From Ramazzottius varieornatus (taxonomy: Eukaryota; Animalia; Tardigrada), in the NCBI GenBank assembly GCA_001949185.1, contig BDGG01000016.1, positions 248,001-312,000 on the forward strand: a stretch of 64,000 nt of DNA, read 5' to 3'. A program made the translations under genes and the position numbers. Below, piece after piece: positions 40,301 through 58,200 of the stretch. The first letter of the stretch is position 1; every line of letters starts with the position of its first letter. The notes under the pieces are model-generated. The model was not told where the DNA came from. It saw only the letters and a list, made by a program, of their open reading frames with translations, and made no database searches.

Positions 40301-43300
40301 TCCTAGTTGCTGATGGATCCAACCCATGTAAGTAAAATCGTCCCTATATAATAAAGGAAGAGATCGAGAAGCCACAGAAGTGGATAATCACCCACCTGCA
40401 TACAGCCGTCTGCGTATTGTACCATAGTGCGAAAGTATGCATGTTTGTGGAAGACTGTAGTTCGTTGTATGTATATTGAGGGATTTCAAGACTGGTGTGA
40501 GAAGTTGAGCGTCCATGGCCTTTGACACGAAAGAGACCTTCGCTTATAAATATTATTACTGACCCTGGTGTTTTGACTTTTGGCAGGGTCTTTGACATCG
40601 TGCGACCAATTCGTCAACGTCTTTCAAAGCAAAGGCTTGCGGCCCGATGTCGTCTGTCCCTGTGCTTCATCCGCCGAAGCCTTAACCGTTGCCATCCGAA
40701 GACCGGGCTCACTGGCTTTACAACAGCCAGGAGCACCCAGTGGTCGCGGAGTCCTGTCCATGAGCGCTCTGAGCTATGGCGTCATCCGAGTTGACCATGA
40801 GAACAGCTTGACGTCGTTGACACTGCAAGATTCTGGCAAAGTTCTTCCGGACGGTAAGCCAACGGTTTTCTTGATAAGCAAGAGAAAAGTCAGATCTATC
40901 GGAATCTCGTTAATAGAAAAATCCAGCCAGTTATTCCACTTCGCATTAAAATGACAATCCAATCAGTTTTCTTGAATCAAAATTTCCCCAGCTTTCGGAG
41001 GTGCATTGACGAAATAATCAACAAGCCATTAATCTACTGTCATCTTTTCGTACTCAGAAATGCTGCTTGACCTCTGGAATTTCAGATTCCGTAGTATGTC
41101 TCAGATAGTCACATATCAAGATGTCAAGTAAAGTCCTGTATTTGTTTCTGGTGTTGCAGGATCGTTGCTGGTCTTGAAGATCGACGGACCACCGTACCTG
41201 TGTAAAACCGATGAAATCGGTGAAATTTGTGTCGACTCACCCTATGTCGGTTCCGGGTACTGGGGACTACAAGGCATCAGCGCCGCCACTTTCAAAGTAC
41301 GTGAAGTCTTTCCGACCTGCTCAAGGTATTACGCAAAGTGATTTGGCGTATAGTGTATTTGATCTATATTTTAGGTTCATCCATTGCGGCAAGATGACAG
41401 TTTGTACCGCGATCGGCAGTATGTGCGGACGGGCTTGCTGGGCTTCTTGGGACCGGTGAGTGCGGGTGTCGTATTAGAGAACATTTGAGAGATGGTGTTT
41501 GATGGATGATGTGTGACATGGCAGTGTTTACAAGGAGGGATTAGATGGTCATATTGGTGTTTATTGTGGTTATTCTCGGTGTGATTGGTAGGGTGGCCTC
41601 TTGTTCGTTTGCGGCAGCCGTCAAGGTCTCATGCAGGTCAGCGGACGCAAACACAACACTGACGACATCATCGCCACCATCCTGGCTGTCGAACCTATGA
41701 AATTCATCTATCGCGGACGGTGAGGAACTTTGCCCAAGCAGAACTTTCCAAAAATAGACTGATCTCACAGAAATAATGATTCTACTGACTGAATAGTCGG
41801 AATGAAACAATTATTAATGGAAAACGGTAGAGCAAGAATTGAAGATGAAATTATGTTATTTTGGAATTTTCAGGATCGCGGTATTTTCGGTGAAAGTCTT
41901 GAGGGACGAGCGGATATGCGTCGTGGCCGAACAGCGGCCCGACTGTACGGAGGACGAGAGCTTCCAGTGGATGAGCAGAGTTCTTCAGGCCGTGGACAGT
42001 ATTCATCAAGTGGGCATCTACTGCTTGGCTCTGGTTTTGCCCAACCAGCTTCCAAAGGTACAACCGACTATGAGGATAAAAAGATTATTTCTTTGTGGAA
42101 AATCTCTGTGAAAGTTATTTGGTCAGTCTTTAACAGTTCTCAGTCATTGCCAGATTGAACTCTGTAGAATACGACAGTCGACACATCTTGATTTGGCCCT
42201 TTCTCCACGAGTTGCTGTACGGTGTCTTAATGATTTCTGTTTCACATAGACTTCGCTGGGTGGCATCCACTTGTCGGAAACTCGCAAGCGCTTTCTGGAC
42301 GGCGCCCTCCATCCTTCCAACGTCCTGATGTGCCCGCATACCTGCGTGACCAACCTACCTAAGCCACGGGAAACACAGGCGGATCTCATCGGACCGGCTT
42401 CCATGATGGTCGGTAGCATCGTGCAAGGTGTTCGGCTGGCCGAAGCTCGTGGCCGGGACCTGCATCTGGCCGACGATGACACAGAGAACGCCAAGAAGGT
42501 ACTGAGGGCTCGCACTTCGAATTAGACGACCTTATCGCTAGAAGCTTTCTATCGTGTAGTATCAGTTTATAACGGAGATACTTCGGTGGCGTGCCACCAC
42601 ATCGCCGGAACATGTGATATACACCCTACTCAGTGCCAAAGGTTTGGCTGTTGGTGGCCTGACCTGTGGTCAGCTGCACAAACGAGCGGAAAAGATGGCG
42701 GCTTTCATTCAAGAGAAAGCTGATGTCCAACCTGGTGACAACGTCGCTCTCGTCTTTCCCCCTGGTATGTATCTTTTCTGGGTCCAAAACACACGATTGC
42801 GAAAAAGAGCTCGATAAAGCAGAGCTAACTTAGAAATGGGACGTCGGCAAATGACATTTGACACGTAAATGACTGTTCTTTCAAGTGGCGCACAGGTTTA
42901 GCCAATAATAATGGCAACGTGCGCCACTGTAGATCAGTTCAAGCTCAAATCCCACCGAAAGCTAAGCTGCGGCTTCCATTTTACATCACTCAAATCGACA
43001 GACTGTATTCGGAGAACCCAAATTTCACGGCAAACGAACAAAATTTAGTAGGACTATCTAAGTCCTGCACCACGGCAACATGTGACACGATCGGGTTCGA
43101 GGCTAGTCAGACGTTCACGTACAACGGCACTGTTGACCTTTGGGACACCATGTTGAGGTATCTTTGGCGCCGCCGACGCAGGTTCCTCTCTTTCCCGTCT
43201 TTGCGCAGATCTGTTGACAATTGCAGCCTCTGCAGTTCTTGATGATTGACCAGAGCCAGCGTGACAAGGGGTCGTCACAAGCCCAGCCCGTCAGCACTCC

Positions 43301-46300
43301 GGCCACCCTGCAGCCTTTACCCTCCACCCAGTAAACTCCGTTCTTTACTGCGTTTCCGATGTCGCCGATGATGTCCCCGAACCAGTTGCGGTTCTGACGA
43401 GCGGATGTCAGGGCTGTGCCGCTCTGGGGAGCAGGAGGCAAGGGCTCCGGAGCGAGGCTGGCTGAGAGGACACCAGAAATTACTAGCGCCACCACGAGGA
43501 ATCCAGCTCCGCAAAAGGTTGGCCGAGCCATGGTACCGCTGACTTCCGAGAGAGACTTTAGGCAAACAAAAATTAGTTTCCAGGAAAACACGGAAATAAA
43601 ACGAATGTTCTTTTCGGTTTAAAAGATTATATACTCTAATGCTTCATGAACTTCGCGAAGTACGTCATCATACGCGTGCAGTTGAACCCCGGTCCGAAAA
43701 TTTTGCCCTACCCACTCCCTAAGGGATGTTTCGCTCGTATGAAAATGTGTTTCGCGAAGTTCGTGAAGCATTACAGTAATCTGGTGCCCTCAGAATTACC
43801 TGAGTTGTATGAAGCAATAATAAACACCGCGTGAGGAAACCATTCCCACTATAAGTGGGAATGCCTTTCATGTCGTGAAATATCCCGCGAAGCACTGCCG
43901 TAGTGGGTGAAACCAGCGAAGGATTCCGACTTGTTTATGCCTTTACCCGGAAGTGGCTCGTGAAAACTTTCATGTGGCTGTAAGGCAACCACTTCATCGT
44001 AAAATTCGACCTTCGGCACAACTAAATCAAAAATTGATCTAGTAGTACAAAAACGTTCGTATTTTAGCACTAAACTTATAAATTTGTAGGCCAGCAAACA
44101 ATTTTGAGAGACAATCGTTTTCCAAGTGGCGCAGTTTTCTTTGTTGTCGGATAGGAAGGTGCGTCACCTGATTCTTTATTGTTATCGTTGCAGGTACTGA
44201 TCTCATATGCGCTTTCTACGCCTGCCTGTACATCGGTGTGGTGCCGGTGACTATCCGGCCGCCGCAGATCCAGAACCTCAGCACGACGCTGCCTACCGTC
44301 AAGATGATCACCGACGTCAGCAAGTCCCGCGCCGTCCTGTCCACCAGCATCCTCATCCGCCTGATGAAGTCGAAAGAAGCCTCGGTGTCAGTGGACCCCA
44401 AGAGCTGGCCGCCGTTACTCGATGCCGACGACCAGCCACGCAAGAAGACCATACCCAGCTACCGACCTCCATCAGCCGACGCGGTGGCGTATATCGACTT
44501 TAGCGTCTCTACTACCGGCATCCTGGCCGGAGTGAAGGTGGGCTTGTCTTGCCTACGCTTCCTTGACGGAAGATATAATGTGGGTTTTATGATTACAGAT
44601 GTCACACGCGGCTTTGACGGCCCTATGCAGGAGTCAGAAACTAGCGTGTGAGCTGTATCCATCGAGGCATGTGACGGTCTGTCTGGATCCTTACTGCGGA
44701 CTGGGCTTCGTCCTGTGGGTTCTCAACAGCGTCTATTCCGGACATCACTCCATTCTTATCCGTACGTATACTAATTATATTTCCATCGATGGCAGGCTGA
44801 AGAGGGCTCACAGTATACAAGCTGCACGTTGAGAGCGCAATACGAAACATATCCAGTATGGGCCATCAGTAGAAAATTGTTGAAATGCCTCTGCTCCATC
44901 GAATGTCAGTCGAAATGACGACAAATCAGACAGTTGACTGTCTACGACGAACAGATGCTCTATAAAGGTTTTCGCTTGTTCTTCAAGCAGTTGCGCTTGC
45001 GAGTCGTGATTTTCATGGGAAATCTGTTGCAGCTCCATCGGAAGTGGAACAGAACCCAGCCTTATGGATAACCACCGTCAGTCAGTATCGAGCTCGCGAT
45101 ACCTTCTGCTCCTACGGTGTCATGGACATCACACTGCGAGGTCTTGGTGGCGCAGTCGCCGTCCTCAAAGTACGTCCAAGAACCCTACTATTCCTTTCCT
45201 TCGAATCATAATTATCATTTTTGTACTGAAATTTACTGGAAGTTGTTTCTTTGGCAGGAACGAGGCCTGAGTCTGTCGTGTGTCAGAACCTGCGTTGTGG
45301 TGGCCGAAGAACGTCCTCGCATATCACTGACCACCTCCTTTTCAAAACTGTTCTCTACCCTGGGACTGTCCGCGCACGCAGTCAGCACCGCTTTTGGATG
45401 TCGGGTCAACGTCGCGCTTTGCGTACAGGTATGTCATTCTCTCTCTCTCTCATTCCCTCATTGTTAAATCTTTTTTCCCTTTAATTGCAAGTCAGCAAAA
45501 CTTTGGCCTTTGATAGGGAGCGTCTAGCCCTGATCCAACCACGTTATACGTCGACATGCGCGCCTTACGGAACGATCGAGTGACTTTGGTGGAACGTGGT
45601 TCTCCACACAGCCTGTGCCTGATGGAATCCGGAAAGCTGCTACCCGGTGTCAAAGTGGTGATTGCCAATCCGGAAACCAAAGGCCAGTGCGGCGACTCGC
45701 ACCTGGGCGAGGTACAAACTGTGCAACTTGGGCCCGAGACATTGGCCGATAGTTTCTACCCTTCTTTTCCCGCAGATTTGGGTGAGCAGTCCGCACAACT
45801 CGACAGGGTACTTCAGTACCTTCGGGGAGAGCGCGCTGACCAACGACCACTTCCACGCTCGGTTGACGACCGGTGATACGCGGACCGTCTATGCTCGCAC
45901 GGGCTACTTGGGTTTCCTGCGTCGAACAGAAGCTATTGGTCCGGAAGGAGGTATGTATGCATCGTTGTTCAGAAGAAAATGAGGCGTATGGTATGGTTCA
46001 TTCTCTTTACAGAGTTGCACGACGCAGTCTTCGTTGTCGGAGCCCTGGATGAAACCCTTCTATTACGAGGCATGCGTTTCCATCCCATCGACATCGAAAC
46101 GTCGGTCCTCAAGTCGGACAAGCGCATTTGCGAAAGGTGATTTTCGCGATTATACTGTGTAAAAATAGAAAACTGTAGTCTTTGTACTGACGTTTCCGCT
46201 TGGCTAAATTCAGCTGTTTATTTGACCTGGAATTTGCAGTGCGGTGTTCTCATGGACGAACCTCTTGGTCGTCACAGTGGAACTCGATGGTTCAGAAGGC

Positions 46301-51340: not shown

Positions 51341-52228
51341 TCGGCGTCAACCCACGCAGGTGATTGCGGCATTCAACCTTCCTGTTTTCCCCAACTAATT
51401 CGAAAAACCGCTTTTGAAGGTTTCATTATCTGGTAGTTCCGATTAACAAGGTCTTTTGATTAATTAGGCTGTATTGGATGGAGTCTTCCGCATTGCACCA
51501 ACTGCACCAAATTACACAAGCCTGTGACATACTTCCTGTTGGAGCTTTTCCATCGATAAATGGACAGAGGAACGAGATGCAACGTTACGGTAGCACGTTG
51601 TGTTTTTGCTTTGACAGTATTACAGATGCTGCGTTGCAGTCATTTCCATTGTGATGGAGGAGGCAACGCTGGCTGCCGGATGCTGGGCTACGCATCACTG
51701 CTCTTGCCGTTATCGATCTGCAATGATCTCCAGAGCCATAAATCAGCTAAGTTGTGCTTGCTACTTTAGCTGCGAATTCACATATTGCACAGAGAAATTT
51801 GTTATATTACAGAGCTTTATTTGACCGGCGCTTTTGACAGCTTTGACAATCTTTTCACGCTTTCGATCGCACTCTCCTGCAGCAGTGTTGTTCCTTTTCT
51901 CACGCCCAGTCACGAAGTGAGAAAACGACAAAATTACCAGAATATTATTTTTCCATGACAATAGATAGAACGATGAATGCACTAGTAAAATTCTACGGTG
52001 AACAGAAAATGAGCGATAAAAATCAAACTTTTGTGAACTCGAGATGTGAGCAAAACCACGGAAAGAAAGAAGACAACAAAAGCAAAACTCCAACACGCAA
52101 AACCGAAAAGGAAAGAAGTCAAAAACAATACCACGGGTTGTGTGATTACTTTCCCGAACACTCCTTTGGACATTGGTCGAGAGAAAGGAGCAAAGATGCG
52201 CAGCTTCCGTGAGATAAAGGAATAGTTT

Positions 52229-55200
52229 TCAAAAGCTCATTTCAATGTCCTCTTTCTGGAGAGGAACTCTTGGTGGAGGCAGCGCTGGTCCACCGGAACT
52301 TTGAGTGCCTTTGGGAAGCCCTTGAGAGACTAATCCGTCAGCTTGAGGGTTCTGATAGTGCTCACTGGAAGCGGTGTCAGTCTGGACTGCGCCATGATCG
52401 TTTCCGGGCATGATTAGTGGATGCACTCGCTCGCGTGCCGGCAAGCGCACTGCACCAATGGGCTTCCCGCGATCCCGCGGTGGCAAGGGTGGCGGCGGCA
52501 TATGGGGCCTCTCAACCTTCTTTGAGCTATCGGTCGACTGGGAGGAAGGCTCGGGCAACAAGGAAGACTCGGTCGATGGAAGACTTTGTTCACTGAAAGC
52601 GAGAAAGACAGTATGAAGCGACAAAATAGAAATGGAGGCCTTCTTAGGTAAGCAGACAGGAAATGGACACATGGTTTCTATTTACTCGTACTATGCAAAT
52701 ATCTGTCAGCCATTTTTGACAATTTTGATGAAATTTTTTCAGTCCTACCTGGTGCTTGGAATGGAACCCGCAGTTCGGAAAGACTGGGTGGAAGTAACTT
52801 GTGGTTGTGCAGTCTCATTGCGTTCAGCCAGGGAGACCTTTGGAGCTTCTTGTGACAAGCTGCGGCCGAAACTGTTAGCCATTCCGTTTCTGTTACCACG
52901 CATTTTCGGTACCATGCCTCTGCCACTCTTGAGCAGTTTCAACGGCGAAGCGGAGTCATCGTTCTCCTCGTCGAGGTCCTCGAGCACCGAGTTCGCCACG
53001 GGAGGCGGACACTGAATCTTAATCTGACCCTCTTCAACCAGTACTCGATAAGCCTCTTTCGCGTCCTCCGAAACCTAAACAGATACACAGCAAAACTGAA
53101 TGTTTTTTTCCAAGAGAGTATTTTCTAGTTTGCTGATGAATAACTGGATTTTGCAAAACGTTAAAGTTTCGTGAGGCTATACTTGGTCTTCCAGTTTGGT
53201 TTCGATCGCTGGCTTGTCCGGTAGAAAGACTTTCGGGGTTCTGGGTCCTTCAGGAACACTTGGTTCGTGCGAAGAGTGCTTATTGCGGAACGCTCTGAAG
53301 GAGAACCGACTCTTTGTACTGAGAGCCGGAGACGGTGCACTGCGATGCAGAGGCGACGTCGGTATCTCCAGGCTCCTGGCGGCGATCTCGTTCGACCCGG
53401 CGGCGAACTCGTCCAGCAGCCTCTCGTCCCGCGGCGAGAGAGGCTTCAGTCCTGCTGATGGTATTCCAGGCGAGACCTCGTCTTTGACGACAGAGATGGG
53501 ATCAAGCTTCTTGCGAAGCATCACCGGCGGCTTGGGCTTCACCGGTGGCGGTGGAGGCTTGGCTGGTTTCACCGGCTTGCTGTACGTCACAGCTTCTCCT
53601 GAAAAACAAAAGGAAGGTTATTTGGTGAGAAATTTTCGTTGGCCTTGTCCAGTGAGATCCAGTCTTCTTCTGGACTTTTACGGAGATATTTAGCTCGGTT
53701 CAACTTGCCAATCAATCCACCCTTCTTCTACGAAAGCAGCTAACCTGCTTCAACCTTTCGCTGGAAATTACGTAGGCAACAGAGTAAAAGGGCAAAAACG
53801 AGCCATGTAACTTTGCAGCGTTCGCGAGCTTGTTTTACCGTTTGGAACTTGTGGAACCTCGGAAGAGTTTTCGGTGGGTTTCTTGGTGTTAGGATCCAAG
53901 TCGACAGGCCGAAAGTGGAACTCTTGGCTGATCGCATGTTTTGCTACTTCCTTCTCCTTCTCCGTTTCCTTCTCCGAAACGATTGGTCGACTGTTCAATC
54001 CTGGCGACCCCTCGTTTGTTCTGTTTCCGTCCTTGCTCAACGTCAGCTCACCACTTGTATCCATCATCCTGAGGACTTCATCCATCAGCGAAGGCCCAAA
54101 ATCCAGATCGAACGTCTACGACAGAAATATAAATAATATTACATCATGCAAGTTTATATAAAACTAGAAGGTAAACAGGAAGTTGGATATTGTACATCTT
54201 CTTGCGTGCCAAAGTTGATAAAGCTTCTGTCAGACTGGGAGGTTCTCTTTGCGTTAACGCCATAACTGCCATGGTCAGGCTGGTCCTTGCCATTACGCCC
54301 CATGGCGCTTGTTCGTGCGGAAGACGACATTGAGGGCTTACGAAGGACAGTGGGTGACGGATAGGTCACCGAGTCTTCCTTGGCATTTCCGGAAGAGCGA
54401 CTAGAGCTGGAGCGAGGGGAATCGGAACTGGTGTTCTGCCACGAGTCTGTTGACATTCGACTCTCCGACCCAATGGTTCGTGGCAAGGACAGCCGCGACG
54501 AGATCAACGGCGTCGTGTAACCCATCGAACGATCGTCGTCCCCTTTGTCAACTGCAAAATAAAGAAACATGATATTTTGATTATTGTCCGTCAGTTTATT
54601 GTGAAAGATGAAAGTCAGAAGAAATTCAATTAAGTCTTTCTGAAAAATGCAGAAAATCGGGAAGCACGCCAAACAAAGTCAACAAAATTAGTTTCCCAAG
54701 TGGCGCTCATTTTAACTGTTGTTGGTCGAAAGCGTGCGCCACTTGGGAAAACCGATCTTCCGGGTTTGTTCTCCGCGCTTTGCATTTGAAAATTTAGTAA
54801 ACTGTGTGAGTTGTTTTTAGATATTTAAGGCTTCTATATTTAGAGTTTTTGATTTCAGTTCTGTAAACTTTACACAGCAGCCACCAAGATTATCATTAAC
54901 TCTTACACGAGCGAGCTGACACTGGCTTAGCATGTAGCCCTTTCTCCATGAAGGCCACATCTCCAAAGTATCCCCCATCCATGCCCACATGTCCCGTATG
55001 CCGGAAGTCTCCTTGTGGCCGACTGATCATATCTCGTCGGATCCTACAATCCATGATCAATAATGCATGAAAGTGAAACCAGACCATCTACCATAATCCG
55101 ATAAATTTCACTTTGTTCTTGCGACCTACTTCGTCTTCATTGCCGCACTCTTCTTCTCAGCCACTGCAAGAATAAAATATTTTATCGATCTTTATAGGCT

Positions 55201-58200
55201 CGTTAAGGTGAAACATCGCTGAAAACTCTCTCTGTCGACGAATTTCGGCGCTTACAGTGCGTCGAACCGTCCGAGCCAGACGGTGGAAGCATGTATGGAC
55301 CCAGGTACGTCACCGTGTCGGATGGATCGAAGAGCCCAGCTTTCCGACCTTTGACCACGCCCTTCCATAAGTTGTCTTCGTCCTCTAGCCTACGAGAAAA
55401 ACAGAAACCCTAACATCCAGAAGCACGTTTTGCAAACGAACAGACGACCAGGAGCTTCTGTACATACTTGTTATCAAGGACTGTAATGACATCGCCGATG
55501 GCGTACTGCAGGTGACTTCGACTGGAGGAGTCCAAGCATTCGCGAATGGCTTGAAGTTGCTCCGGCTTTTTCTGTAATGAGGTAAAACCGTTTAGTGAGC
55601 CATAGGTTGATTCTTCGAGCTTCTTGGAGTAATTCATGATACGTACTTCCGGCAGAACTTCAACCAGGGTAGAGAACGTTGGACGATCAGGTTCTTGGAA
55701 TTGCCAGCAGCTTAGCATGAGCTGGTAGTAATCTTTCGGACACAAGTCCGGTTGGTCCAACCGTCTACCAGACTCCAACGCTTCTAAGATCTAAAACAGT
55801 GAAGAACTTGTAAACGGATCGGAAATCGCAGGTCTAATTGGAGAGCTTGGTGTACCTCATGACTGGGAACTCCGATCCATGGTTCGACACCCAGTGAAAA
55901 CATCTCCCATAGCGTTACTCCGAAAGACCAGACATCGCTTGAGCAAGAGAAACGTGAATATCGCAGTGTCTCAGGTGCATACCTTCAAAAAACAAATCAT
56001 CGGCTTAATTTCTCAATATTAGTTGCCGATGTGAATCTCGTTTTATCATAAAAGCACAAAGAAATTTTGGAAACTGAAAATTCGTTTCAGTACCATGGTG
56101 AAACTCGAGCTTGATTTTCGTCTTCGTCCAGCGGGTTCTTGGTGAAGAACTGCGTCAAACCGGCGTCCGATATCTTAACCTAGCATGCAGTGAAGCTTTG
56201 GAAGAGTGGTAACAACTTCCTTACGCATTACGTTACGCGGAGGTTGACGAGTGTGTGTACCTTCATTTTGGAGTAAACCAGCACGTTCCTACAAGAACAA
56301 GAAGCCATGTTACGATGGAGCCTATTTAACCTAATTGGTTAATCGATTAAAGTCTAAAGTGGTGTAATAAAATGCATTTTATTCCACCGACCGTGCAGCG
56401 AGGCCTCCGTGGACGAACTGGCATGATTCGAGGTACTTCATGCCTTCGCAAATTTGCAGCGCCATATCACACAGGGTAATGACTGAAAAACTGGATTTGA
56501 GCAACGGATCACGCAGCGTTTCCACCAGCGATCGATTAGGCGCCAACTCGCTAACCTACATCATCGGAAGAACGTCATCAGCTGCGTTACGAAGTAGCAG
56601 CCAAGCGTGAGAAAATAAAACTCGAGTAGTCCCAACCCGGGCCAAACTTCGACCCCCAGAACACGTTCGTATCACATCATCTCGATTGCGCGAAGCATGA
56701 TTTATCACGTTATTTTGACCCGATGTAACATGAGAGAAGCGCGTATGCGGGGTGGCAGTTTTGGCGGGGATTAGTTCTTCATGACACTTACGAGCCACAT
56801 CAAAGGACCAGTCGGGGCCTCCGCGCTGCCCAGCGCCAGACTGTAGAATGGCACCACGCGTTCGTGCTTGAGCGAGTGTAGTGTAGCTACTTCCTTCAGG
56901 CATTCCAGCGGACTGCTTTGTATTCGCTCGCTGTCCAGACACTTCACCGCCACCTCGCACTACAAAGGGCAAATGCTAAAATTGAGAGGTTGAAAAGATG
57001 GACACTTATCGATCACATTCTTCGAGCTTTGCCTGACTGCATTTAGCGTCTACCGATACTACCAGATATTCAGTATTCAGGCACGTCGTTGAAAAACTCA
57101 AAACCGAATTTGTAAACTGTCGTCCGGAAGCTCGGCATACAAACTCGACAAGATCGGCTACCCAAGTCGGGCCCATTCCTAACCCACCAACACCGAGAGC
57201 GTGCGCCACTTGGGACAGCGATTTGGTCAATTTCCCATGCGGCGCACGCCCCCAGCGAATCACACCAGAGCTATGCGCCACTTGGGAAAACGATCTTTCG
57301 AGTTTATTTATCGAACTTCCAAGTACAGTAACTCTATTTTTTCCAAATGGTTTTTACTTTAAGTACATTACGCACCGGAATGTCTTGGTCATCGGTCCAA
57401 ACCGCCTGGTAAACATGTCCAAACTGGCCCGAGCCCAGCAGTGGGCCTAGCTTAATACTATTAATAGGAATGTGTTTGCTGCTTGAAGACGGTAGCGAAG
57501 CCGACGATGAGGAAGGAGGAAGATGCTTAGCGGACAGCTGTTGCAACTGGTCACGTCGGACCTCCCACTGATCCACACCGGAATTTCGACGTGATAAGTT
57601 TCCATTCTGATGCTGACCGGCCACCGCTGAGGAGGATGAGGACGTTTTTGTTTGGATTATCTACAAAGCACAACAATACTAGAGAAACGTGCTTTCATTT
57701 ATGTGAACAGCAGATTAGGAACAATAATGCCAACATTCCAGAAGAAATGTTGGCCCGATACAATTAAGTTATTTTCAACTTTATTACACTCCCTGATTTT
57801 TCTGGATTGTGTCCGTTGGTTTCAAGAGTCGTTAAGACACTTTCAGTCTATATTTCCTCAAGGGTTTGTTTGCCTCGAAGGAACACAGATCTCTGAAAGC
57901 AACCTCAAAGACGACCGTCGCGATTGTATGCAGGTATAATTATCATTGGACGAGAATATATGGAACGAACACAGTTTGCGCGTGTTTCCGCGGGTCATTC
58001 TGACATAAGCCTCTTCAAATAAGTGTCAATTCTGGTCACAAAAGACACTAATCTCCGCGCAGATAAAAGAGGGCTCTTGCCGTCGAAAGCAGCCCAGTTC
58101 GAACTAGGCCGCGCCGAAAAGACTACGTTCGCTTTTATACGCCGAAGTAAGCCTAACAGATCAAGAGTCAAAACCTCGGCACAACACATGCTTTCGGTTC

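What the first reader, a model, noticed from the sequence alone, without database searches (positions are those of the whole stretch)
43115..43531. Nested antisense gene for a hybrid helix + 10-Cys CSab/macin-like secreted peptide inside DIP2
Seen: an intronless 138-aa ORF with strong Kozak context, a signal peptide, and a Pro-rich propiece ending in an R-x-x-R convertase site (RQNR). The 90-aa mature part has net charge about +6 and 6 Trp. It begins with an amphipathic segment NWFGDIIGDIGNAVKNGV and ends in CQQIC...KRGTC...WCPKGQQCRC. Established: C-x3-C / G-x-C / C-x-C defines the CSab defensin fold; an extra C-P before the last CxC is typical of macins (hydramacin, theromacin); helix-plus-defensin fusions occur in scorpine-like peptides. 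The N-terminal Cys spacing (C-x10-C-x14-C-x2-C-x-C) matches no family I recognise. Inference: a new antimicrobial or toxin-like peptide family that gene predictors could easily miss because it is nested.
Basis: partly seen in the sequence, partly recalled or inferred. Interest (0 to 1): 0.8.

Follow-up and report, generated by a model that had tools for sequence, protein, structure and literature searches.

The report
Hidden macin-like peptide family of micro-animals
A small gene lying backwards inside an intron of the DIP2 gene, in what is likely a tardigrade, encodes a predicted secreted, cysteine-braced peptide; it belongs to an apparently unnamed family also present in rotifers and likely defends these tiny animals against microbes.

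Summary
The gene is real. A 138-codon minus-strand ORF (43115-43531) lies in a 1,429-nt DIP2 intron that is spliced out in 7 of 7 RNA-type runs. Separate contigs cover the ORF, but its strand is not shown by reads. The 90-aa mature part has 23 relatives among 1.84 billion representatives, and a profile search added 12. Named ones come from Ramazzottius, Hypsibius and the rotifer Adineta.

The family is defined by 8 cysteines, not 10, with spacing 10-(17-23)-3-(8-10)-(10-13)-5-1 in 36 of 37 sequences, plus CD-x-P...W and D-x-S-[ST]-WCP motifs. The extra CxxC pair occurs only here and in RvY_09808. The first helix is not conserved, so the scorpine-like hybrid reading fails.

The cysteine order matches macins, but the spacing matches no row of a 533-row CSab reference array, and no scanned member reaches a Pfam cut-off. 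A low-confidence model gives helices plus a C-terminal helix/two-strand module; all fold hits are non-significant.

Verdict: an apparently undescribed macin-like CSab family, most likely a secreted antimicrobial (0.55). The function is untested.

The parts
43115..43531 (-). Intronless ORF, 138-aa precursor (P0001)
   Evidence: homologues
43460..43531 (-). Predicted signal peptide, residues ~1-24 (cleavage position inferred)
   Evidence: hydropathy; a hydrophobic upstream stretch is present in 30 of 36 family members
43388..43459 (-). Pro-rich propiece, residues ~25-48, ending in R-Q-N-R (predicted convertase site)
   Evidence: sequence; RvY_09808 has RVKR at the aligned place; 13 of 36 members have a basic site
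43334..43387 (-). N-terminal amphipathic helix, residues 49-66, net -1, lineage-specific
   Evidence: hydrophobic moment 0.5-0.6; modelled as a helix at pLDDT ~50; mostly absent in RvY_09808
43220..43312 (-). Conserved N-terminal subdomain C74-x10-C85-D-x-P...W with an amphipathic Trp-rich helix; carries the private C100/C103 pair
   Evidence: helices at mature residues 19-33 and 40-49 in the model
43121..43219 (-). CSab-type module C105-x3-C109...G-x-C118...D-x-S-T-W-C129-P...C135-x-C137
   Evidence: helix 57-62 and strands 68-72, 85-89 in the model, pLDDT 64-78; weak CSab hits
42738..43611 (-). Inferred transcript span, with the 3' UTR probably reaching into the DIP2 exon
   Evidence: contigs 42738-43610 (X6), 42740-43589 (X2), 42865-43611 (X1, two pieces); strand inferred, not shown by reads
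43627..43633 (-). TATATAA box, about 22 nt upstream of where two runs' contigs end
   Evidence: function inferred
42765..44193 (+). Host DIP2 intron, 1,429 nt, GT..AG
43632..43778 (.). MITE-like multi-copy element (43-nt inverted arms, TA at both ends) directly upstream of the TATA box
   Evidence: loose ends at 43630-43632 and 43778-43785

Best explanation
This intronless gene nested antisense in a DIP2 intron encodes a predicted secreted, macin-like peptide that is likely cut at RQNR, is predicted to fold into a disulfide-braced helix-plus-CSab structure, and likely binds and damages microbial surfaces. Shown: the ORF, the host intron, contigs from spliced-RNA runs over the ORF, a family with 8 invariant cysteines, and a cationic, Trp-rich make-up. 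Inferred: minus-strand transcription from the TATA box at 43633; secretion and convertase cleavage; disulfides by analogy with the macin array (C74-C129, C85-C118, C105-C135, C109-C137, plus a private C100-C103); and killing by docking of basic residues and the amphipathic Trp helix on anionic microbial membranes, with aggregation and permeabilisation as described for macins.
For: There are 23 homologues at E<=1e-3 and 12 more from a profile search. 36 of 37 sequences carry the full 8-Cys frame; W94, G116, S126, W128 and G132 (precursor numbering) are invariant in those 36. The cysteine order C1,C2,C3,C4,C6,C7,C8,C9 is the macin array (PMC5116183 passages and supplement 1). The 36-sequence model has a helix at C-x3-C and strands at G-x-C and C-x-C. 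6 of the 9 Foldseek rows are CSab proteins, four of them at rmsd 1.2-1.3 A over 34 columns, none significant. The best Pfam leads are CSab families (Defensin, Toxin_3, Defensin_2, Macin; E 0.012-0.16). Core net charge has median +5 and is >=+3 in 29 of 36; a hydrophobic leader is present in 30 of 36; the helix after CDxP has a median hydrophobic moment of 0.54. Identity to RvY_09808 is 42/65 in the Cys core against 15/38 in the prepro part. Macins are cationic CSab peptides with an extra N-terminal helix that aggregate and permeabilise bacteria (PMC6780910 passages).
Against: No functional data exist. No scanned member reaches a Pfam cut-off. The models are low-confidence (mean pLDDT 52 and 60), and no fold search was significant, so the disulfides were not observed. 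7 of 36 cores have net charge below +3 and two are -3. Near-invariant acidic residues (D86, D124, 35 of 36) fit a structural role or a specific binding site better than plain membrane lysis. PMC5116183 states that cysteine pattern does not predict activity. The best PDB sequence leads are scorpion alpha-toxins, not macins (E>=0.012). The strand is not shown, and a plus-strand AATAAA lies at 43595. A second allele differs at 5 codons, 4 of them non-synonymous, and the ORF is no less variable than the UTR (6/417 against 7/350, p=0.59).
Confidence: 0.55

Rival explanations
1. The peptide is a secreted non-immune factor (trophic, repair, signalling or stress-protective ligand) built on the same scaffold, acting through a protein receptor or specific partner.
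For: Macins also have nerve-repair and proliferative activity (PMC6780910 passages). Invariant non-cysteine residues (W94, G116, S126, W128, G132; D86 and D124 in 35 of 36) across cores with median 44% pairwise identity suggest a conserved surface. Some members are neutral or acidic. The named hosts are tardigrades and a bdelloid rotifer (desiccation tolerance of these groups is recalled knowledge).
Against: Most cores are cationic and aromatic-rich. The loops and leaders vary widely, and alleles differ mainly at non-synonymous sites, which is more typical of defence peptides (recalled).
Confidence: 0.22
2. The peptide is an ion-channel-modulating toxin used against prey, predators or parasites, like scorpion CSab toxins.
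For: The top PDB profile hits are scorpion alpha-toxins (E 0.012-0.05). Toxin_3 and Toxin_17 are among the weak Pfam leads. Atlas leads for the rotifer member include Toxin_3 clusters at 0.77-0.78.
Against: The matches cover only about 30 residues of the generic C-x3-C...G-x-C motif and are below all cut-offs. The atlas scores are under the 0.9 lead threshold, and its first hit is a nematode antimicrobial cluster. The array differs: Na-channel toxins have 3-(5-9)-3-(9-11)-(4-9)-1-(14-17) with a C-terminal Cys, whereas this family ends at C-x-C.
Confidence: 0.12
3. The RNA over this region is a sense-strand DIP2 product (retained intron polyadenylated near 43610), and the antisense ORF is a silent or decaying copy.
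For: A plus-strand AATAAA lies at 43595, 10-15 nt before the contig ends. The intronic contigs share 42738-42767 with the DIP2 exon. Contigs carry no strand. The ORF varies between alleles as much as the UTR.
Against: The ORF is intact in both alleles with no cysteine or core-motif change. Conservation against RvY_09808 is concentrated in the Cys core. All three plus frames over the ORF are closed (3-5 stops). A minus-strand TATATAA sits about 22 nt beyond the contig ends.
Confidence: 0.06
4. The family is not descended from macins or CSab peptides; it is an independent disulfide-rich fold that only shares the C-x3-C/C-x-C motif.
For: No significant sequence or fold match was found. The spacing matches no row of the 533-row array. 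The family's own motifs cover the whole length.
Against: The secondary-structure order in both models is helix then two strands at the motif positions. The weak hits from four searches converge on CSab families.
Confidence: 0.1

Closest known systems
Macins (hydramacin-1, neuromacin, theromacin, mytimacins; Pfam PF14865)
   Same: Same order of eight cysteines (C1,C2,C3,C4,C6,C7,C8,C9), including the extra Cys before the last C-x-C; signal peptide; cationic; over 60 residues; additional N-terminal helix.
   Different: Spacing is 10-(17-23)-3-(8-10)-(10-13)-5-1 against the typical macin 6-14-3-9-(6-7)-(8-9)-1. The family has its own CD-x-P...W and D-x-S-[ST]-WCP motifs. The best Macin HMM score is 13 bits against a cut-off of 27, in 1 member and only over the C-terminal half. 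The fifth Cys pair here is a CxxC before the helix, not the C5-C10 bond of theromacin.
Hypsibius 'defensin 5/6' (macin-type rows in PMC5116183, supplement 1)
   Same: Tardigrade peptides with the same eight-Cys order.
   Different: Spacing 8-13-3-9-6-9-1. Their sequences were not compared here, only the spacing.
[quoted passage not shown]
   Same: Same eight-Cys order and the same 5-1 ending.
   Different: Much shorter N-terminal loops (5-7-3-10-5-5-1); no room for the helical insert.
Scorpine / long-chain helix + CSab hybrids
   Same: A helical segment N-terminal to a CSab module.
   Different: Scorpine's module has six Cys (9-3-8-4-1) and a Cys-free cationic helix (recalled). Here the conserved helices are inside the cysteine frame, and the free helix is acidic and not conserved.
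RvY_09808 (Ramazzottius varieornatus), BV898_08477 (Hypsibius exemplaris), CAF1439478/CAF3998306 (Adineta steineri)
   Same: True homologues. RvY_09808 shares all ten Cys and groups with this peptide (UFboot 100).
   Different: All are annotated as hypothetical or unnamed. RvY_09808 lacks the long leader helix, and the others have eight Cys.

Membership tests
CSab superfamily | C-x3-C, G-x-C and C-x-C motifs with an upstream partner Cys | tested here: met
   Present in P0001 and in 36 of 37 family sequences
CSab superfamily | Helix packed on a two-stranded antiparallel sheet | tested here: inconclusive
   Model has helix 57-62 and strands 68-72, 85-89 at pLDDT 64-78; Foldseek rows are CSab but E>4; VIA-align gave nothing informative
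CSab superfamily | Disulfides C2-C6, C3-C8, C4-C9 | not testable with these tools
   Model coordinates are not returned; inferred by analogy only
Macin (PF14865) | Eight-Cys order with C1 and C7 added to the CSab core | tested here: met
   Order matches the array in PMC5116183 in 36 of 37 sequences
Macin (PF14865) | Macin spacing 6-14-3-9-(6-7)-(8-9)-1 | tested here: not met
   Family range is 10-12 / 17-23 / 3 / 8-10 / 10-13 / 5-6 / 1, against the macin rows
Macin (PF14865) | Pfam Macin score at or above the gathering cut-off (27 bits) | tested here: not met
   P0001 has no hit; the best member scores 13 bits, E 0.16 (37 distinct family sequences scanned in all)
Macin (PF14865) | Additional N-terminal alpha-helix | tested here: inconclusive
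   Helices 19-33 and 40-49 are predicted at pLDDT 50-57; the amphipathic pattern is conserved
Macin (PF14865) | C1-C7 disulfide; bacterial aggregation and permeabilisation | not testable with these tools
   Needs disulfide mapping and assays
Scorpine-like hybrids | Conserved cationic Cys-free N-terminal helix fused to a six-Cys CSab domain (helix feature recalled) | tested here: not met
   The leader is net -1 and not conserved; the core has eight Cys, whereas scorpine has six
Long-chain scorpion Na-channel toxins (PF00537) | C1-C10 array with a long C-terminal extension after C-x-C; Pfam cut-off 21.5 bits | tested here: not met
   The peptide ends one residue after C-x-C; the best member scores 16.2 bits; array rows
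Nested antisense intronic gene | Lies wholly in a spliced intron of the host gene | tested here: met
   Intron 42765-44193 is skipped in 7 of 7 RNA-type runs
Nested antisense intronic gene | Own transcript from the opposite strand | tested here: inconclusive
   Contigs cover the ORF but carry no strand

The most novel reading that the evidence does not exclude
This is the first-noticed member of a separate branch of the CSab superfamily, in which a helical subdomain is disulfide-tied to the defensin core. The branch is a main antimicrobial effector of moss- and soil-dwelling micro-animals and has moved horizontally between tardigrades, bdelloid rotifers and other meiofauna. The two named tardigrade lineages do not group together in the tree, but deep support is low.
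Probability: 0.15. Interest if true: 0.75.

Novelty: new variant of a known kind. Interest (0 to 1): 0.52.

Why it matters
Tardigrades appear to lack parts of the canonical Toll pathway, and whether they have novel antimicrobial peptides is stated as open (PMC7056985 passages; 'defensin' and 'macin' occur 0 times in its main text). This gives a concrete, transcribed candidate effector and a 36-member family with a new cysteine spacing, ready for recombinant assay and structure work. If the peptide is antimicrobial, it adds a scaffold to the CSab superfamily and shows that such effectors hide in introns and escape protein collections. If it is not, it is still an unnamed secreted family conserved across at least two animal phyla.

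Tried and rejected
Searches on P0001 alone. Pfam gave 0 families, the PDB sequence search 0 and the Atlas no usable hit. Word-index searches with P0001 or the two-sequence alignment found only RvY_09808. No paralogue was found in the window by tblastn.

Folding. The single-sequence model had pLDDT 52 and gave no informative fold hit. VIA-align on the alignment model returned only helical-bundle noise, Z<=3.4, and nothing from the 7 Foldseek chains it aligned. This absence is no evidence for or against a fold.

Prokaryotic or viral source. Pattern scans of viral contigs and of prokaryote genomes found no relative. One Streptomyces locus (L006) was rejected as a chance match in a repeat-like stretch without the cysteine frame. 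These scans only reach sequences that share short patterns.

Whole-genome context. No genome is held for the window and the genome index did not complete, so the species, the paralogue count and whether RvY_09808 is a paralogue or an orthologue remain open.

Reads. No listed holder is on record as RNA; the RNA nature of 7 runs rests on their spliced DIP2 joints. Contig depth over the ORF was far below DIP2 in X1 and X7 and above it in X3, X6 and X10. The tool states that depth cannot rank genes, so this is not used as evidence. The lack of cover in the right half of the intron, and at 43503-43620 in X3 and X10, is likewise not used. X12 covers only 42764-43147.

Rows left out. P0018 was dropped from the spacing statistics and tree because it lacks the last C-x-C. 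Of the near-identical cluster members P0025-P0047 and P0060-P0066, only P0060 was included.

Literature. Ten searches found no description of this family, and the accession search gave 0 papers. Supplements are not covered by that search, bioRxiv supplements were closed and subscription papers are missing, so expression tables or a prior mention could exist unseen. Five look-ups of earlier scan findings were empty.
Full report
1. Observation. The minus-strand ORF 43531-43115 translates to the 138-aa precursor described. It has a hydrophobic N-terminus, a Pro-rich spacer ending in RQNR, and a 90-aa mature part with 10 Cys, 6 Trp and net +6. Its GC content (0.585; GC3 0.63) stands above the flanking intron (0.45 and 0.42). 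It lies in a 1,429-nt GT..AG intron, 42765-44193. The flanking exons carry consecutive parts of an AMP-binding domain, with DMAP_binding upstream and AMP-dom_DIP2-like downstream, so the host is DIP2. An ORF this long arises in 12 of 500 shuffles of the intron, so length alone is weak evidence; homology is the decisive test.

2. Expression. I laid 8 of the 24 listed runs. Seven, from five studies, skip the intron and therefore hold spliced RNA, although their RNA label is a guess. The eighth (X15) is flat through introns without joints and behaves like DNA. Separate contigs cover the whole ORF in X1, X2 and X6, most of it in X3, X10 and X7, and only its 3' end in X12. Contigs of two studies stop at 43610 and 43611 while the DNA-like run goes on to 43673, a weak hint of a transcript end. 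A minus-strand TATATAA begins at 43633, which fits a start there. A plus-strand AATAAA at 43595 fits a sense poly(A) site equally well in position. Contigs give no strand, so antisense transcription is inferred from the coding evidence. In X3 and X10 the contigs stop at 43484, one with 30 unplaced letters; this is unexplained.

3. Homologues. The word-index search found one relative, RvY_09808 of Ramazzottius varieornatus: 45% identical overall, all ten Cys kept, RVKR at the cleavage site. An exhaustive phmmer search with the mature part found 23 proteins at E<=1e-3, and a profile search returned 21, of which 12 were new. Named members are BV898_08477 of Hypsibius exemplaris and two Adineta steineri proteins; the rest are unnamed. 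One subgroup sits, intronless, on 30-35% GC contigs that have a GT..AG intron-like break in a neighbouring gene; I infer bdelloid rotifer DNA. P0001 itself is not in the collection as an exact sequence. I infer that the window is a tardigrade, probably Ramazzottius or close, from the best hit and the shared private cysteines; this could not be checked against a genome.

4. What defines the family. 36 of 37 sequences match C-x(10-12)-C-x(17-23)-C-x3-C-x(8-10)-C-x(10-13)-C-x(5-6)-C-x-C. Besides the cysteines, W94, G116, S126, W128 and G132 are invariant in the 36, and G82, D86 and D124 are present in 35 of 36. Median pairwise core identity is 44%. The extra C100/C103 pair occurs in 2 of 36 (P0001 and RvY_09808), which are sisters at UFboot 100. 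The Hypsibius member falls elsewhere and the deeper nodes are poorly supported, so no transfer or order of events is claimed. A hydrophobic leader is present in 30 of 36 and a basic cleavage site in 13 of 36. Core charge has median +5 (range -3 to +14). The helix after CDxP is amphipathic (median moment 0.54; 0.61 here). The leader NWFGDIIGDIGNAVKNGV is net -1 and is largely absent from RvY_09808, so it is a lineage-specific addition, not a scorpine-like domain.

5. Fold. The 36-sequence model (mean pLDDT 60, pTM 0.42) has helices 2-15, 19-33, 40-49 and 57-62 and strands 68-72 and 85-89; the last 30 residues are the most confident. Foldseek gave no significant match, but 6 of its 9 rows are CSab proteins. 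Pfam scans of members and PDB profile searches give only sub-threshold CSab leads, and Atlas leads for the rotifer member are 0.76-0.79. VIA-align added nothing. The CSab call is therefore well motivated by motif and convergent weak hits, but it is not proven.

6. Comparison. In the reference array of PMC5116183 (passages; supplement 1 read whole, 533 rows), the eight-Cys order C1,C2,C3,C4,C6,C7,C8,C9 occurs in macins (typically 6-14-3-9-6-8-1), in Hypsibius defensins 5/6 (8-13-3-9-6-9-1) and in fungal DLP family 4 (5-7-3-10-5-5-1). No row has this family's spacing. Nematode macins are described as ten-Cys peptides (PMC10506718 passages and section 17). Macins have an extra N-terminal helix, aggregate and permeabilise bacteria, and also aid nerve repair (PMC6780910 passages; barnacle model also in PMC12496222 passages). 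The peptide probably works like a macin but fails two membership tests (spacing and Pfam cut-off), so it is not filed as one. No description of the family was found in ten searches (listings only, unless named above). PMC7056985 and bioRxiv 10.1101/2021.09.04.458992 (passages) do not mention defensins in their main text. Supplements of tardigrade and rotifer expression papers were not seen.

7. Mechanism. Most likely (0.55): transcription from its own TATA promoter, secretion, convertase cleavage, oxidative folding to four conserved disulfides plus one private one, then binding of basic residues and the Trp helix to microbial membranes with aggregation or leakage. Every step after the sequence and family evidence is inferred. 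Rivals are a non-immune ligand (0.22), a channel toxin (0.12), an independent fold (0.10; this concerns ancestry and overlaps the others) and a sense DIP2 by-product (0.06). The allele data cut both ways. The second allele differs at 14 of 851 sites over the nested unit against 1 of 1,146 in DIP2 exons (p=6e-5). Four of five changed codons are non-synonymous and none touches a cysteine or core motif. This fits a fast-evolving defence gene or relaxed constraint.

8. Verdict. A real nested gene and an apparently undescribed macin-like CSab family of micro-animals: a new variant of a known kind, interest 0.52.

Noticed in passing
window 43632-43778: MITE-like element with 43-nt inverted arms and TA at both ends, multi-copy by read loose ends. 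Its left TA overlaps the TATATAA box of the nested gene, so it sits immediately upstream of the inferred promoter.
   Followed up: partly
window 43484: Contigs of two runs (X3, X10) end here, one with 30 unplaced letters, just beside a minus-strand CTAG. This may be an allele bubble, an alternative 5' end or splice, or a filter effect.
   Followed up: no
window 42738-42767: The intronic contigs run into the upstream DIP2 exon, so the nested gene's 3' UTR may overlap host coding sequence in antisense; a minus-strand AATGAA lies at 42709.
   Followed up: partly
window 42846-43521: A second allele (runs X2, X3, X6, X10) is about 1.6% divergent over the nested unit while the DIP2 exons are almost identical.
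   Followed up: partly
L001 6359-10726: Next to the family member on this probably rotifer contig lie three intronless, mutually similar-looking 403-521-aa helical proteins with no real Pfam hit and, for the one tested, no PDB hit. DUF4246, PapA_C-like, thioredoxin-like and phospholipase A2 genes lie upstream.
   Followed up: partly
window 42879-42892 and 44120-44133: A 14-nt direct repeat (core CAAGTGGCGCA) near both ends of the intron; loose ends in X15 suggest that the motif recurs elsewhere in the genome.
   Followed up: no
window 1-30000 and 52000-56000: Neighbouring ORF fragments look, from recall only, like a SPEN/SPOC-type gene, a SET-domain histone methyltransferase, Hsp110, a Smad and an ACK-type kinase: ordinary compact animal gene content.
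   Followed up: no
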